DNA of 64,000 nt, taken from assembly GCA_964016885.1 (NCBI GenBank), contig OZ024744.1, positions 71,734,001 through 71,798,000 on the forward strand, read 5' to 3'. This document shows positions 17,357 to 63,975 of the stretch, in pieces (the stretch's first letter is position 1; each line of letters starts with the position of its first letter). The notes beneath the pieces are model-generated. The model made no database searches and was not told where the DNA came from. It saw only the letters and a program-made list of their open reading frames with translations. This stretch comes from Eledone cirrhosa (lineage: Eukaryota). The translations under genes and the position numbers were made by a program.

Positions 17357-17765
17357 GGTGAATTGGCAGTATCGGTAGAGGGTTGGATTATGCTTTCCAG
17401 CATAGTTACGTCCCTTTACGATCTGAGTTCAATTCCCGCCGAGGTTAACTTTGCCTTTCATCCTTACGGGGTCGATAAAATAAAGTACCAGTAATGTACT
17501 GGAATAATTGCTGGCCTTGTGCCAAAAAGTAGAAACAATTATTAATTATTAAAATTATTATTAATATTCGAAAAGGCTTGTGGATTGGCAGTATCGGTAG
17601 AGGGTCGGAGGCCATGCTTTGACGCATAGAGTTACGGCCCTTGCCATTCTGAGTTCAAATCCCGCCGAGGTTAACTTTGCCTTTCATCCTTACGGGGTCT
17701 ATAAAATAAAGTACCAGTAATACACTGGGTGAATGCTGGCCTTGTGCCAAAAGTAGAAACAATTA
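17357..17765 (+). mobile_element. Two tandem full-length main SINEs (17357-17540, 17579-17765)
   Basis: Complete head, core and tail; two distinguishable subtypes. Confidence 0.92.
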
Positions 17766-54344: not shown

Positions 54345-54712
54345 ATTAAATAAATGGAAAACTATATTTATAAAACCATATTTATTTCATTATATATATT
54401 TCGGGGATATCATATTAACAATATGCTATGCCTTCATCAGACAAAATACAATATAAACAGTTTTATAGATAAATATATATATAAATATATATATATCTAT
54501 AAAACTGTTTATATTGTATTTTGTCTGATGAAGGCATAGCATATTGTTAATATGATATCCCCGAAATATATATAATGAAATAAATATGGTTTTATAAATA
54601 TAGTTTTCCATTTATTTAATATTGTAAATATACTCCAAGTATTTGTCGAGTGCTTTTATATCAGTTATAAATATTTACTAGTTGTAACCCAACAATTTTA
54701 AATATAACTTTA
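54339..54712. mobile_element. Near-perfect ~288-bp palindrome (54339-54626) made of two head-to-head copies of an HHR element, family G
   Basis: The arms are reverse complements around a TA-rich centre at ~54482; the right arm extends to ~54712. Confidence 0.92.
54518..54581 (+). ncRNA. Type-I hammerhead ribozyme, family G (mirror copy at 54384-54447 minus)
   Basis: ATTTTGT-CTGATGA-A-GG..CATATT(GTT)AATATG..CC-GAAA-TATATA-TA-ATGAAAT. Confidence 0.75.
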
Positions 54713-57850: not shown

Positions 57851-58174
57851 TTCTGTGATGTCATATGGCAGCCCGCCATTGATTTGCACACCGCCGTCCT
57901 AGTCGATGCTTTCTTGTTGTAGTTTAGGCTGGTTGTTTTCGAGATACATTGTTGACCCTCGTATTCAAGAGAGCTGCTCCCATCATTAGGATCAAAGAGA
58001 ACTGATTACCGTAGTTAGAGGATGAGATCTAATTAGGTTTTGGTTTCAGGCATCCTTGAACGACATTTCATTAAAAAAAGAAAATTCTTGACTTATAAAC
58101 ACCCTCCCGTGGAAGTGACGTTTTTTTGGAAAATATTCCCTAAATGACGCTTATTATTGTATATATACGATGAT

Positions 58175-58936
58175 GGTGGATTGGCAGTATCGGTAGAGGG
58201 TCGGACGCCATGCTTTCCAGCATAGTTACGTCCCTTTACGATCTGAGTTCAAATCCCGCCGAGGTTGACTTTGCCTTTCATCCTTAAGGGGTCGATAAAA
58301 TAAAGTACCAGTAATGCACTGGGTAATTGCTGGCCTTGTGCCTAAAGTAGAAACAATTATTGTATATATACGATAAAATAAAGAATCAGTAATGTACTGG
58401 GTAATTGCTGGCCTTGTGCCTAAAGTAGAAACAATTATTGTATATATACGATAAAATAAAGAATCAGTAATGTACTGGGTAATTGCTGGCCTTGTGCCTA
58501 AAAGTAGAAACAATTATTGTATATATACAATACGGCGTTCGATTGGCAGTATCGGTAGAGGGTCGGACACCATGCTTTGGCGCATAGAGTTACGGCCCTT
58601 GCCATTCTGAGTTCAAATCCCGCCGATGTTAACTTTGCCTTTCATCCTTACGGGGTCGATAAAATAAAGTACCATTAATGCACTGGGTAATTGCTGGCCT
58701 TGTGCCAAAAAGTAGAAACAATTATTGTATATATACAATATAAAGACAGTGGATTGGCAGTATGAGATAAACGTCAGACACCTCGCTTTGCAGCATGGAG
58801 TTATGGCCCTTTATGTTCTGAGTTCAAATCCGCCTATATTAACTTTGCTTTTCATCCTTACGGGGTCGATAAAATAAAGCACCAGTAATGCACTGAGGTA
58901 ATTGCTGGCCTTGTGCCAAAAGTAGAAACAATTATT
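58175..58936 (+). mobile_element. Tandem cluster of main SINEs: three full copies and two 3'-only copies
   Basis: Heads at 58175, ~58534 and ~58749; short 3' copies in 58371-58520; the spacer attattgtatatatac is repeated. Confidence 0.92.
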
Positions 58937-59365
58937 TTATATATTTCCATCATTGTACTGCTTTATATATATATATATACTATCAGAATGGCCCGGTGTT
59001 GCTCGGGATTTGCTCTAGGGTTCTTATATATTTGGTATATATTTATCCTTATAGAGCCTCGTGAAATAAATACGTTTGTTTATATTTTGTTATTGTGTAT
59101 GCAAAAATATCTGTACACGAATATATAATTATATATATATATATATTTCACTTCTCTCAACAACTTAATGGCGAATCAGATCACTTCAGATTTGTACGTG
59201 TGTTATATAGTTATAGAGGTATTTATTTACGCTTTAATTTATATTTAATATATTTTTAATTATCGTGTCTATATTCTGCCTTCCATAGGTTATAGATTCC
59301 ATACACTGGTGGTTTTTCCCTGTTTTATTGATGGCGCACTGTATCTTTTCAACATATTGTATATA

Positions 59366-59964
59366 TTTCCATTGGAAATTCTCTGGATTTCCAATTTTTG
59401 GAATGATGAAACCGTCGGTAACAGCAATAGAACAGGTGATTATTTAAATCGTTTTTTAATTTATTTAGAGAATTGTTTGATAACCGCTTGCTCCGCTCTT
59501 TTTATATTGTTCTGGTATCTCAAATTAGTACCATCGAACCACAATTATTATAAACATCTTACATATTTCTACAAGTACTTAGTGCCTGTTGAAGTATTCA
59601 TCCACTTTTATAATTTTTCTCCTTATGTAGAGAACAAAACGTTGAATAATGCTACTAATTTAGGTGGCAGTATCAACACGTTTATAATAAACAGCTATTA
59701 TCTGCGACCTGATTTTGCGTGTATGTCATTTTAACGGCTTGACCGCATGTGTTGGGCAGGAAGCGAAATATTTACTTGCTGTAGGGCTGGCAACCTTATA
59801 GTATGGAAATAAGCTGTCTGAAGATCCATTTCTTTCCATTGGAAATTCTCTGGATTTCCAATTTTTGGAATGGTGAAACCGTCGGTAACAGCAATAGAAC
59901 AGGTGATTATTTAAATCGTTTTTTAATTTATTTAGAGAATTGTTTGATAACCGTTTGCTCCGCT

Positions 59965-59968
<4 letters not shown>
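59366..59968 (+). mobile_element. HHR element, family I: 467-nt monomer, about 1.3 tandem units
   Basis: 59366-59501 is repeated at 59833-59968; ends in (TA)n. Confidence 0.88.
59813..59892 (+). ncRNA. Type-I hammerhead ribozyme, family I, intact
   Basis: GCTGT-CTGAAGA-T-CCATT..ATTGGAAATTC(TCT)GGATTTCCAAT..AATGG-T-GAAA-CCGTCGG-TA-ACAGC. Confidence 0.88.
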
Positions 59969-60020
<52 letters not shown>

Positions 60021-61453
60021 GGATTAACAAATAATAGTTAAATGCAGTCCACTTAGGTGAAGTCCAGTTATGGTATTCCAGGTAGTGGATGATATTAACG
60101 CTTGGCTTGGTTTGACTCAACAAGGCGTTTTCATAGTGATGCTGCGGGTATGCTGTAATTCCTATGTTGTAAACACTTGGAGTAATAATAAATCAGGAAA
60201 GAAGGTTTACATGGTTTGCTATACAAAAAAGTTTTTAATCACATAGCTTACATTTGTTTCACTGAACTGGTCTGTCTAGAGATCGCTATCCGCCTAATTT
60301 TGCGTCACTCGATCGCCAATACAGAATTATAACCAGTATAGTTATATATATATATATATATATATATTAAAATAACAGATTAAAGTTTAAGCAAAGAATC
60401 ACTGCTTTCACACTTAACGGGATCTTCTACCTAAAATCAGTATGAAGTACACTAAGACTAACTGATGTAATCGTTGGCCTTGTTTGTTTATATTTTGTTT
60501 TTGTGTATGCAAAAATATCTGTCAGTGATGCATATGATTATGTAATCGCCAGCCTTGTTTGTTTATATTTTGTTTTTGTGTATGCAAAAATATCTTTACA
60601 GAATATCTATATTAAAATAACATATTAATGTTTAGGCAAAGAATCACTGCTTAACGGGATCTTCTGAAACTAAAAAAAAATCAATCTGTGAACGCAGATG
60701 TAAATATTTCCAAAAACGTTGCAACCGATGGAAAACAGGAAGGCGATACTTTGGTTCGTGAAGCCTTCCCTGACAAGAATATATCTATATACACACACAT
60801 TATATATACATACACATACACACACTGATCGCGTCCTAATGTCGTAATGCAGACAGCCAGGCATACAGAGAGATATTATGAAAGCGCGACGTCATATCTA
60901 TGTATCTATCTAAAAAGAGAAAGATTAAGAGAAAGAGAAAGAGATCGCTAAATCACCTCATGCGGTCCCTAGGGCATTGGAAATTTGAAATTTCTTTTTC
61001 TCAGAACACTCAATAGAACCATAAGAAAAAAAAACGGTTGGGTAGTTCTCGAGTTTTAGGGAAACAGATACACAGACATTCTTTGTTTTATATATATATA
61101 TATAAATGAAAAGTATAGAAATTGTTGTAGCGAGAAGCTAACAGTATTCCATAACATATATGTGACTATAGCGTCAAAATGGGAAAATAGTTAACATAAG
61201 ATATGGGAAAAATAATTCAGACTCAATTCAAAAGGAATCGGGATATAGATTTATCCAACAGAATTTAGAGAAATCCAGGGAAAAATCAATAGAGCCTTAA
61301 CTCATGATAAAACAAAGTCTAAAGTACTCAACCTTCAATTTGGGACAACTTCAAATGCTCTGTCTTGAAAAGACTATTTCACGAAAAACTATTTATACAT
61401 ATATATATTTATATATATATATAAATGGTTACACAACAGTTAGTTCACCATAC

Positions 61454-61491
61454 CGAGAACAATTGTTTCACCTTAGCGGATCTTCAGCTCG
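61454..61491 (-). ncRNA. Minimal type-I hammerhead ribozyme in the PLE pLTR, family J (mutated copies at 63156-63193 plus and 63914-63951 minus)
   Basis: Minus strand: CGAG-CTGAAGA-T-CC(GCTAA)GG-T-GAAA-CAATTG-TT-CTCG; the other two copies read CAGAAGA. Confidence 0.85.
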
Positions 61492-61653
61492 TAATGGGCA
61501 TGGTTATAGGAACAGGAAGGAGAACCGTACGAACGCGCATGCGCAGAAACCCGGTCACTTCACACAGGCAATACAAGAATGCGTGCGAGAGGTGTAAGTG
61601 AGATAACTGCGAAAGTCCAAAAAGTTTTTAGTTGATAAGAAAATTACAATGAT

Positions 61654-63020
61654 TCAATCCGGAGCTTTATAGTTATGCAATAGGTGTTTGGAGACGTGTG
61701 GACAACGTGTGAAAAATTCATTTCTTGTGTTTAGGCAATCACTATTGCATAGTCTCTTTAGAATAGTTATTCGTTCGTCAATACATAACCCACACGTCGC
61801 ATTTCCCCTTGCGTATGGCTTGGACTTAGTGATGGCTTTCCATTGAATGGAGTAGTCTATACTTGAGTCCTTGGGGCACCATACGTGGCTCGCGAGTTTC
61901 GTGGATGAACGTCTGTCCGGGTACCTAAAGGTCGACTGGTGGTTCAGGAAACGTTCCTTAAATCGGCCCTCCGCCATGCCCACATAGGATTTGACCTCCT
62001 GTGGTTTGGTCGGTTGGAAGTGACCACAGCTTCATAAATTACAGCTGGTGTGTTCATTGCTGTTGAAGGGGCAAGCTTCGGGCTTACGGCAAGAGCACCC
62101 TGGTGGGGTGTTGCTCCTAGAGCTGCTGGTGATGTGGGCCTTCATGTTCTTAGCGCAGGAGAATCCTAGTTTGACTTTGTGTCGGTTAAAGATGGAGCGG
62201 TATTTATGACCTATGGGAGCGCTAGACATTTTTTTCCTACATTGGTTTTAACGTTGAGTGAGAAGGGAGGAGAGAACCAGATAGTTTGTCTATTGTTGCG
62301 CTTAATTTTCTTATTGCTGTTGTTGATAGTGGGAGAGTAAGTGATAGGTTGCGAGAAGCCGCTGTTAGCCAACGCCGTGTTATAGTAGGGTGCCGCCCTG
62401 TCAAAGAAAGCCTTATTAGAGGAGAGGTTTGAGATTCTAGTACCCATATTATTTACGAAGTTTCTAAAAACAGTGGGAGGGTGGCATGAGTCCTTGTGAA
62501 TGTAATTGAGTTTTTCGTTAAGCTTATGGAAGTGTCTGTAGGTGTGTGTGAGAAAGTATAAATTCATGTCTAAGAAATCTACGCTAGAGAGGTTGGTAGC
62601 TACTGTTATCCTAAGTCCTAACTCATTGAAGGTAGAAGCTAAGTCTTTTTTAAACCGGTCGAGGTCGTGACCACTTTTATGGCTCGATAAAGTCAGTCCA
62701 TCGTCGCGGTATATTCCCGTGTGGAAGTCCGGGAATCTTACACGTAATATGTCTAAGATAAATAGGTCAACCAAGTCACATACGTCAGCACTGTCAAACG
62801 ATCCCATGGAGACATCAAATAGGTCTGAAGTTGTAGACTTCTTTGCCCAAGCTACTCCGTCGTTGAAGAGGAGGGTTTTCCGGCAGTGAGCGATGATTTC
62901 CCTGTCTAAACCATCGACGGTGATGTAAGTGGTAGCAAAGTCCAACACTTTGTTTAACAGAGTCTCTGATATCGACGGGTAAAAACCAACAATGTCAAAC
63001 TGTGTGAACTTCGCTTTTAT
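61654..63020 (-). pseudogene. PLE reverse transcriptase and GIY-YIG endonuclease, frameshifted
   Basis: FDIVGFYPSI, MGSFDSADVCDL, YRDDGL, FLD, WFSPPFS; CSCR..CP, VIY, YVGM..FKERF.NH, CGLC..E, LNTRNE..CPH. Confidence 0.92.
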
Positions 63021-63288
63021 GCATTTTCGGACTTTCGCAGTTATCTCCCTTACACCTCTCGCACGCATTCTAGTATTGCCTGTGTGAAGTGATCGGATTT
63101 CTGCACATGCGCGTTCGTACGGTTGACCTTCTTGTTCCTATGACCATGCCCATTACGAGCAGAAGATCCGCTAAGGTGAAACAATTGTTCTCGGTATGGT
63201 GAACTAACTGTTGTGTAACCACTTCTATCTAACTCGTCCCATGGACTGAGTACTCTACCACTACGGATATTACCTTCCAGTGTTCCAC

Positions 63289-63340
<52 letters not shown>

Positions 63341-63344
<4 letters not shown>

Positions 63345-63408
63345 GTGGCACACTGGAAGGTAATATCCGTAGTGGTAGAGTACTCAGTCCATGGGACGAT
63401 TTAGGTAT
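63341..63408 (-). repeat. Inverted partial pLTR copy mirroring 63226-63293 across (TA)n
   Basis: agtggtggcacactggaaggtaatatccgtagtggtagagtactcagtccatgggacg is the reverse complement of 63235-63292. Confidence 0.88.
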
Positions 63409-63619
63409 TTATATATATATATATATATATATAAATATAAGCATGTATATCAGCCGTACTAAGAGTGAGAAATAAAATTTCATTTCATTCTTTTCCATAT
63501 ATATATATATCGACAGTGGATCGACTTTCGTCAAATCAAACCGAGGAAACAATGTTTCCGTTGGTCTTTCCAATTGCTAATACTATCTATCGGTCGCAAC
63601 TCCAGGTAGAAGGAGCAGC

Positions 63620-63701
<82 letters not shown>

Positions 63702-63747
63702 GAGAGAGAGAGAGAGGGAGAGAGAGAGGAAGAGAGAGAGAGAGGGA

Positions 63748-63821
<74 letters not shown>

Positions 63822-63823
<2 letters not shown>

Positions 63824-63975
63824 ACACTGGAAGGTAATATCCGTAATGGTAGAGCACTCAGTCCATGGGACGAGTTAGGTAGAAGTGGTAACACAACAGT
63901 TAGTTCACCATACCGAGAACAGTTGTTTCACCTTAGCGGATCTTCTGCTCGTACTGGTCATGGTTATACGGAACA
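63822..63975 (-). mobile_element. Additional pLTR fragment of the same Penelope family
   Basis: Matches the reverse complement of 63135-63285. Confidence 0.88.

What the first reader, a model, noticed from the sequence alone, without database searches (positions are those of the whole stretch)
59366..59968. Cleanest retrozyme-like candidate: 467-nt monomer, 1.3 units, intact HHR
Seen: a terminal direct repeat of ~135 nt spans the HHR 3' half, and one full HHR is present (5-bp stem I, long two-part stem II, ACCGTCGGT stem III, GUA). There is no credible protein. The spacing between the two predicted cleavage sites (59420 and 59887) is 467 nt. Inference: greater-than-unit length is what reverse transcription around a circular RNA would produce. 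It is nested in a Helitron, which could spread it further.
Basis: partly seen in the sequence, partly recalled or inferred. Interest (0 to 1): 0.75.

Follow-up and report, generated by a model that had tools for sequence, protein, structure and literature searches.

The report
Penelope-inserted hammerhead retrozyme family
This is one of hundreds of copies of a 467-base repeat with a self-cutting-RNA (hammerhead) fold and no recognisable gene, whose copies end at two fixed points in TA microsatellites, so it was likely pasted in by a Penelope-type jumping gene's enzyme, probably copying round a small RNA circle.

Summary
In detail: a 135-nt terminal direct repeat at 467-nt spacing and one whole type I hammerhead (59813-59892) whose stems are kept by compensatory changes. 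The upstream site (59420) lacks the CUGANGA strand. The family has 248 exact core matches. Copies are not freely permuted. In 180 insertions, 242 of 275 arms end at monomer position ~87 or ~192, running into (TA)n, while 5' ends scatter. In 62 of 63 assignable two-armed insertions one arm ends at each site. This is the Penelope 'tail' and inversion footprint, here with a 105-nt tail. No copy sits as the pLTR of an ORF and no partner was found. A re-read monomer (circle or template jumps) is favoured: arms read through the cleavage site, tandem units share rare variants, and a young sister family has 16-site arrays. One length pattern fits a linear RNA better, and no RNA data were available. 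Helitron spreading is not supported. Verdict: new member of the metazoan non-LTR retrozymes. The scan has already reported similar families elsewhere in this genome.

The parts
59366..59967 (+). Family A insertion: monomer positions 413-467 + 1-467 + 1-~80, 5'-truncated inside hammerhead stem II, 3' end at the 'S87' site
59421..59887 (+). 467-nt monomer, cleavage site to cleavage site; folds more stably than shuffles (z -3.5, 0 of 100)
59813..59892 (+). Whole type I hammerhead motif (5-bp stem I, CTGAAGA, U.U at 10.1-11.1, long two-part stem II, GAAA, 3-bp stem III with near-palindromic loop); predicted cut after 59887
59366..59425 (+). 3' half of a hammerhead without the CUGANGA strand; keeps the palindromic stem III, so it could be a substrate only in a double-hammerhead fold (inferred)
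59953..59967 (+). S87 end site used by this copy (inferred RT start), joined to (TA)n; an internal copy of it lies at about 59490-59507
59508..59612 (+). 105-nt 'tail' between the two end sites, ending at S192 (59602-59612); contains a hairpin (59508-59539) also predicted in sister family D
59968..60019 (.). (TA)26 target microsatellite, shared with the 3' end of the autonomous element on the other side
59144..59363 (+). 5'-truncated piece of an unrelated 542-nt hammerhead family (B) ending at its own 175 site; family A starts 2-3 nt after it
60020..60337 (-). 5'-truncated 3' end of a very young autonomous PLE (808-aa frame at L382; RWK and CxCX5C motifs, Hydra type)
58980..59146 (+). Left part of the host repeat (Helentron/DINE-like 5' inverted repeat, internal TA run)
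60337..60460 (+). Host repeat resumes; contiguous with the left part across a TA run in empty copies; probably runs on to about 61090 (read by eye, not tested)

Best explanation
This is a 1.3-unit copy of a 467-nt hammerhead-bearing repeat with no recognisable gene, whose copies end at two fixed sites in (TA)n; it is likely a retrozyme pasted in by a Penelope-like element's enzyme, probably from a re-read monomer RNA such as a circle. Shown from sequence: the family is dispersed; its hammerhead helices are conserved; its 3' ends lie at positions ~87 and ~192 and are joined to (TA)n; 5' ends scatter; inverted two-armed insertions almost always use one site each; both arms and successive units come from one haplotype; most arms run through the cleavage site. 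Inferred: transcripts are cut by the hammerhead, best as a dimer through the palindromic stem III, and monomers are ligated. A PLE RT/GIY-YIG protein supplied in trans (Neptune or Hydra type; both are in this genome, and (TA)n bias is reported for Hydra) cuts a TA repeat. It primes inside the RNA at S87 from one DNA end and at S192 from the other, then runs on past the junction, giving one- or two-armed insertions of 0.1 to 3.4 units. About 0.9 for trans-mobilisation by a PLE; about 0.6 that the template is a covalent circle rather than linear RNA with template jumps.
For: Ends: 139 of 159 arms at S87/S192, 137 of those 139 followed by TA; 38 of 39 orientation-checked twins mixed, p 7e-11. In 180 independent insertions, 242 of 275 arms end at the two sites and 62 of 63 assignable two-arm insertions are mixed. 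Three other TATA sites (129, 263, 377; listed) are nearly unused as 3' ends. PLEs show a tail on one of the inverted pLTRs (PMC3846280, passages), and PLE RT starts internally at two sites bounding the tail (PMC11167929). Hammerhead: stem II pairs 406:453 CG 83/TA 48, 407:452 CG 102/TA 24, 409:450 TA 103/AT 30. With sister family D, 10 of 27 pairs change on both sides. The stem III dimer is -13.3 against -0.6 kcal/mol as a hairpin. Read-through: 93 of 108 arms that reach position 25 cross the first cleavage site, and 15 of 15 cross the second. One template: subfamily alleles differ between tandem units at 47 of 1271 sites (492 expected) and between twin arms at 46 of 976 (379 expected). Rare variants are shared by tandem units 6 times against ~0.2 by chance, and by twin arms 15 times against ~0.4; the two rates do not differ (p 0.37). 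Divergence is 3.4% against 3.7% in the 27 loci that have both. Sister family D (about 485 nt, homologous over the whole monomer, ends at 88-91/197, 99% identical copies) has arrays of up to 16 hammerhead sites with array-private haplotypes and period-3 and near period-4 unit patterns.
Against: No RNA evidence of expression, cleavage or circles was obtained. No autonomous partner: a joint A+D profile found no homology in 314 kb of 66 PLE loci except one plain insertion. This is not a return to the arm's own start (S87 12 of 22, S192 2 of 23, p 0.001) and fits a linear RNA beginning there better than a circle. Only 4 of 97 arms stop within 4 nt of the cleavage site (1.8 expected, p 0.11). The U.U pair at 10.1-11.1 may weaken cleavage. 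Core positions are hardly more conserved within family A than other positions (1.8% against a median of 2.4%). In vitro, PLE insertion did not need the hammerhead (PMC11167929), and 8 of 9 Xenopus retrozyme dimers did not cleave (bioRxiv 10.64898/2026.07.22.740005). Shared variants and array homogeneity can also come from gene conversion or unequal crossover. There is no A>G excess (0.0061 per A against 0.0061 T>C per T), so no editing scar proves an RNA stage.
Confidence: 0.68

Rival explanations
1. Non-autonomous PLE copied from a linear, uncleaved read-through RNA of about 1.0-1.25 units that starts around monomer position 65-150. The hammerhead is largely dispensable, and longer arrays come from template jumps or longer source arrays.
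For: 5' ends pile up at positions 65-150 only after about one unit, in both end classes (28 of 45 against 20 of 76). Only 15 of 132 arms pass a second cleavage site. [quoted passage not shown] U.U at the base of stem II.
Against: The two unit positions would then diverge as separate lineages, yet they share subfamily alleles and rare variants. Hammerhead helices are kept by double changes across families homologous at about two-thirds identity. Sister D makes long one-haplotype arrays. Part of the pile-up may be TATA microhomology at 83 and 129 (20 of 66 single arms start within 3 nt of a TATA site).
Confidence: 0.22
2. Solo or partial-tandem pLTR debris of an autonomous PLE not yet found; not an independent ORF-less unit.
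For: The footprints are those of PLEs. Xenopus retrozymes are sister to PLE pLTRs (bioRxiv 10.64898/2026.07.22.740005). The 132-codon frame starts just before the hammerhead, where Poseidon ORFs start. Only 66 PLE loci were examined, out of 10,596 GIY-YIG candidates.
Against: Upstream of the hammerhead every long arm continues into the previous monomer, never into an ORF. PLE ORF pieces in 34 of 232 locus records (duplicates included) are neighbours or nested insertions (L108 and L060 checked). A and D are homologous over the whole monomer with frame-breaking gaps.
Confidence: 0.07
3. A DNA-level satellite spread by unequal crossover or carried by the Helitron-like host.
For: This copy lies inside a Helentron-like repeat; tandem arrays exist.
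Against: Fixed 3' ends in (TA)n, scattered 5' ends and inversions. 0 of 19 other host copies carry it; 1 of 178 family loci (the window) is nested this way.
Confidence: 0.03

Closest known systems
Metazoan non-LTR retrozymes (Cervera and de la Pena 2020, PMC7229834, parts 2-4 of 6 read; Li, Clavereau and Pollet 2026, bioRxiv 10.64898/2026.07.22.740005, parts 1-3 of 5 read)
   Same: ORF-less, AT-rich, few-hundred-nt units with a type I hammerhead, dispersed as monomers and short tandems, in a genome with PLEs. A U.U pair at the base of helix II also occurs in axolotl HHR_Amex2.
   Different: 467 nt is above the 170-400 nt of the 2020 paper but inside the 51-972 range of the 2026 one. Oversized two-part stem II. 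About half the insertions are inverted two-armed structures with two fixed ends; the parts read do not describe this for retrozymes. Circular RNA is not shown here.
pLTRs of EN+ Penelope-like elements (Cervera and de la Pena 2014, PMC4209133, parts 1-2 of 4; Arkhipova et al. 2013, PMC3846280, passages; Frangieh et al. 2024, PMC11167929, main text; Craig et al. 2021, PMC8557442, passages)
   Same: Hammerhead with short helix I, long helix II and palindromic helix III; partial tandems; head-to-head inversions; a tail on one arm only; (TA)n targets as reported for Hydra and Naiad.
   Different: No RT or EN ORF. The tail is 105 nt rather than 30-40. Priming sites carry TATA microhomology to the target, whereas Poseidon primed without homology in vitro. 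No parent element was found.
Helentron-associated non-autonomous elements, DINE-1/HINE (Thomas et al. 2014, PMC4067079, passages): applies to the host only
   Same: Short non-coding repeat with a 5' inverted repeat and an internal microsatellite.
   Different: It is only the landing site; its subterminal repeats and 3' stem-loop were not established.

Membership tests
Non-LTR retrozyme | Type I hammerhead in each unit | tested here: met
   Core present in about 97-99% of copies per position; helices covary; no Rfam model match
Non-LTR retrozyme | Short tandem units of a few hundred nt, dispersed | tested here: met
   467 nt, 248 exact core hits, up to 3.4 units
Non-LTR retrozyme | No protein-coding capacity | tested here: met
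   The 132-codon frame is open in 7 of 14 spanning copies; variants fall 22/22/16 by codon position; N:S 47:12. No Pfam match for the window's part of it, no hit among longer proteins, absent in D. Its length is unusual (3 of 2000 shuffles).
Non-LTR retrozyme | At least two consecutive whole hammerheads (the 'active' criterion of Li et al. 2026) | tested here: not met
   Not met by this copy (one whole, one half); met by other copies such as L002, L007, L008
Non-LTR retrozyme | Self-cleavage in vitro | not testable with these tools
   Needs an assay
Non-LTR retrozyme | Expressed as linear and circular monomer RNA | not testable with these tools
   No RNA holder listed; genomic signs are mixed
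Non-autonomous EN+ PLE derivative | Two fixed 3' ends (tail), 5' truncation, head-to-head inversion | tested here: met
Non-autonomous EN+ PLE derivative | Sequence homology to the pLTR of an autonomous PLE | tested here: inconclusive
   None in 66 PLE loci, 314 kb; a small sample of the 10,596 candidates
Autonomous PLE | RT and GIY-YIG ORF between pLTRs | tested here: not met
LTR retrozyme (plant) | Type III hammerhead in LTRs, with PBS/PPT | tested here: not met
   The hammerhead is type I and the repeats are variable partial tandems; PBS/PPT were not searched
Helentron-associated element (host) | Subterminal inverted repeats, 3' stem-loop, TT target, autonomous Rep/Hel partner | tested here: inconclusive
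   5' inverted repeat and internal TA seen; 3' end and partner not established

The most novel reading that the evidence does not exclude
One hammerhead-generated RNA circle is primed at two different sites 105 nt apart by an asymmetric Penelope RT dimer, one site for each end of a cut TA repeat. The 62-of-63 asymmetry would then be a genomic record of how PLE enzymes use a circular template, and this lineage (A, D) would have lived as ORF-less circles long enough to diverge by about 30%. A further, weaker possibility (under 0.1) is that the 132-codon frame across the junction is translated only from the circle.
Probability: 0.4. Interest if true: 0.7.

Novelty: new member of a known kind. Interest (0 to 1): 0.45.

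Why it matters
The papers read propose that animal retrozymes are mobilised by PLE proteins from circular RNA, but they do not show it. This family gives mapped start sites, a quantified two-site asymmetry and a young sister family with long arrays. With these, the reaction can be tested with a purified PLE protein on circular versus linear RNA. The class itself is known, and the scan has found several similar families in this genome, so the gain is mechanistic support rather than a new kind of element.

Tried and rejected
Rfam at gathering and E<=10 thresholds: no hammerhead hit. RNA runs: no RNA holder listed. Four contig sets of unrecorded kind cover the monomer and its end-to-start joint, which DNA tandems also give, so they were not used as evidence on expression. 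C1:92.31 Mb (two same-strand hammerheads 4 kb apart) looked like pLTR-ORF-pLTR but is two separate insertions. L165 (844-codon frame upstream of a copy) is a Neptune-type element with its own hammerhead variant, separated from family A by a TA run. An apparent wall at the second cleavage site in the core-pattern sample vanished in the end-pattern sample (15 of 15 pass). Self-collision on a circle as the cause of the length peak was rejected. A-to-I editing scars were not found in A or seen in D's variant list. My first structure string was out of register; it was discarded and redone, on 5 sequences with a structure taken from the window copy, so its controls lean in its favour. Partner search by A/D tail alignment to 31 PLE 3' regions gave one z=5.2 hit that is a gappy AT-rich match. 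A small C-[HTA]-GT hairpin about 30 nt before the distal end resembles one in the Hydra-type element, and the pyrimidine-rich ends resemble those of a Neptune family; these are leads by eye only. The protein atlas look-up of the 132-aa frame was unavailable; only longer proteins were searched.

Full report
Context. The window is G000:C28:71734001-71798000 of a 3.0-Gb genome, rich in TA/CA microsatellites and LINE fragments. It looks like an octopus genome (my recall, not from a call).

Observation. 59366-59507 and 59833-59974 are a direct repeat, 97.9% identical, 467 nt apart. One whole type I hammerhead motif lies at 59813-59892, with predicted cleavage after 59887. The upstream copy starts inside stem II and has no CUGANGA strand. 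Rfam has no matching model. The monomer folds better than shuffles (z -3.5).

The ribozyme fold is real. Across copies three stem II pairs switch on both sides (CG 83/TA 48; CG 102/TA 24; TA 103/AT 30); these counts reflect a few subfamily events, not independent ones. A sister family D, homologous over the whole monomer (alignment score 260 against 69 +/- 9 for shuffles), keeps all four helices. Ten of 27 pairs change on both sides in five sequences, and its stem III is a perfect palindrome. Stem III is marginal as a hairpin (-0.6 kcal/mol) and strong as a dimer (-13.3), as described for metazoan hammerheads (PMC4209133). Family A has U.U at 10.1-11.1 (140 of 142, 153 of 156) where D has G-C. 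Within A alone the core is not clearly more conserved than the rest.

Family anatomy. There are 1985 first-look candidates and 248 exact matches of the core pattern. I mapped 29 best-hit loci and 74 loci from the first 100 listed pattern matches; arms under 78% identity were dropped. 139 of 159 arms end at monomer position ~87 or ~192, and 137 of these run into TA. Of 48 tail-out inverted pairs, 39 have both ends assignable and 38 use one site each (p 7e-11). I then added all 78 exact S192 ends and 54 of 55 exact S87 ends, giving 180 independent insertions. 242 of 275 arms end at the two sites. Of 80 two-arm insertions, 62 are mixed, 1 is same-site and 17 have an unassigned end; 7 multi-arm cases were left aside, and orientation was not rechecked in this count. 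The end-pattern loci are selected for having one such end, but not for being mixed. Families B (175/263) and D (88-91/197) behave alike. A tail on one of the inverted pLTRs is a PLE hallmark (PMC3846280, passages), and it corresponds to two internal RT start sites (PMC11167929). So the copies are permuted only at their 5' ends.

Circle or linear RNA. For a re-read monomer: 93 of 108 arms cross the first cleavage site and 15 of 15 the second; 39 of 132 exceed 467 nt. Tandem units and twin arms share subfamily alleles (47 of 1271 and 46 of 976 discordant, against 492 and 379 expected). They share rare variants beyond chance at similar rates (6 and 15 site pairs, not fully independent in 3-unit arms), and they are equally diverged in the 27 loci that have both. 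Young family D has arrays with up to 16 hammerhead sites; units differ by 1.1 changes within an array against 3.9 between arrays (15 arrays), with period-3 (L365) and near period-4 (L364) patterns. Local duplication could also make these, but the younger family has the longer arrays (best-hit samples in both). Against: 5' ends pile up at positions 65-150 after about one unit, and this is not a return to the arm's own start. Run-off at the cleavage site is rare (4 of 47 S87 arms, 0 of 50 S192; pooled p 0.11). No A>G excess was found. I put the circle at about 0.6.

Partner. GIY-YIG PLEs are abundant (10,596 candidates). Both Neptune-type (CX2-5CxxC linker) and Hydra-type (RWK, CxCX5C) elements are present. 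No homology to A or D was found in 66 PLE loci apart from one nested insertion. PLE ORF pieces occur in 34 of 232 family-A locus records, none as a pLTR-ORF junction by my reading; the two closest cases are an insertion starting mid-ORF and a Neptune with its own pLTR.

Protein. A 132-codon ATG frame (start 59803, stop 59732-59734 of the next unit) crosses the junction. It is rare in shuffles (3 of 2000), but it is open in only 7 of 14 copies, has no codon-position bias, is absent in D and has no family or longer-protein hit. I treat it as non-coding, and its length is unexplained.

Surroundings. The host is a small repeat with a Helentron/DINE-like start and an internal TA run (features from PMC4067079, passages). 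That run took three separate insertions: a piece of family B, this element, and the 3' end of a young Hydra-type PLE. None of 19 other host copies carries family A, and no second composite was found.

Literature and novelty. Non-LTR retrozymes and their proposed PLE dependence are in print (PMC7229834, parts 2-4 of 6; bioRxiv 10.64898/2026.07.22.740005, parts 1-3 of 5). Six searches listed no paper on cephalopod retrozymes or on two-site asymmetry in retrozymes. I read no supplements (those of PMC8557442, PMC4209133 and PMC7229834 may list cephalopod families; bioRxiv supplements are closed), and Repbase and Dfam were not available. Earlier notes of this scan describe like families in this genome, one with a 467/468-nt unit. 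A look-up by sequence found nothing, so I cannot say whether it is the same family. My reading was formed before these look-ups.

Verdict. A real, PLE-mobilised hammerhead repeat and a new member of a known kind, with well-quantified insertion footprints. Circular RNA is likely but unproven; Helitron spreading is not supported. Interest 0.45.

Noticed in passing
L363, L364, L365 (G000:C4:179.17 Mb, C2:74.82 Mb, C3:111.82 Mb): Young sister family D (485-486 nt, 99% identical) forms arrays of 8-16 hammerhead sites with array-private haplotypes; L365 has a period-3 and L364 a near period-4 unit pattern, as multimeric circles would give. A better test case than the window copy.
   Followed up: partly
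window 59144-59363; L032-L050: Family B, a 542-nt hammerhead repeat unrelated in sequence to A, with 3' ends at 175 and 263 and the same two-armed insertions.
   Followed up: partly
window 60020-60337; L381, L382: Very young autonomous Hydra-type PLE (808-aa frame, copies 99.7-100% identical, two ends about 168 nt apart). Its pLTR has a hammerhead-like motif with a CCGAAGA core, a long stem II and U.U at its base, like family A.
   Followed up: partly
L165:6095-6140: A Neptune-type element whose 3' repeat has a hammerhead-like motif with the U3-A8 core variant and a palindromic stem III (read by eye).
   Followed up: no
window 59803 across the junction to monomer position 314: 132-codon frame that is complete only in a circle or multimer; unusual length but no coding signature.
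   Followed up: partly
window 17146, 54391-54574, 54884, 55821, 61458-61487: Further hammerhead-like motifs of other families, including an inverted pair at 54.4-54.6 kb.
   Followed up: no
window 61416-63968: Nested inverted repeats (208-nt arms 1.4 kb apart; a 182-nt palindrome at 63226-63407) around a 308-codon frame with no Pfam match (62211-63137, minus strand).
   Followed up: no
window 58150-58945: Tandem cluster of a 210-226-nt SINE-like repeat with 78-nt partial duplications; similar units at 17358 and 41767.
   Followed up: no
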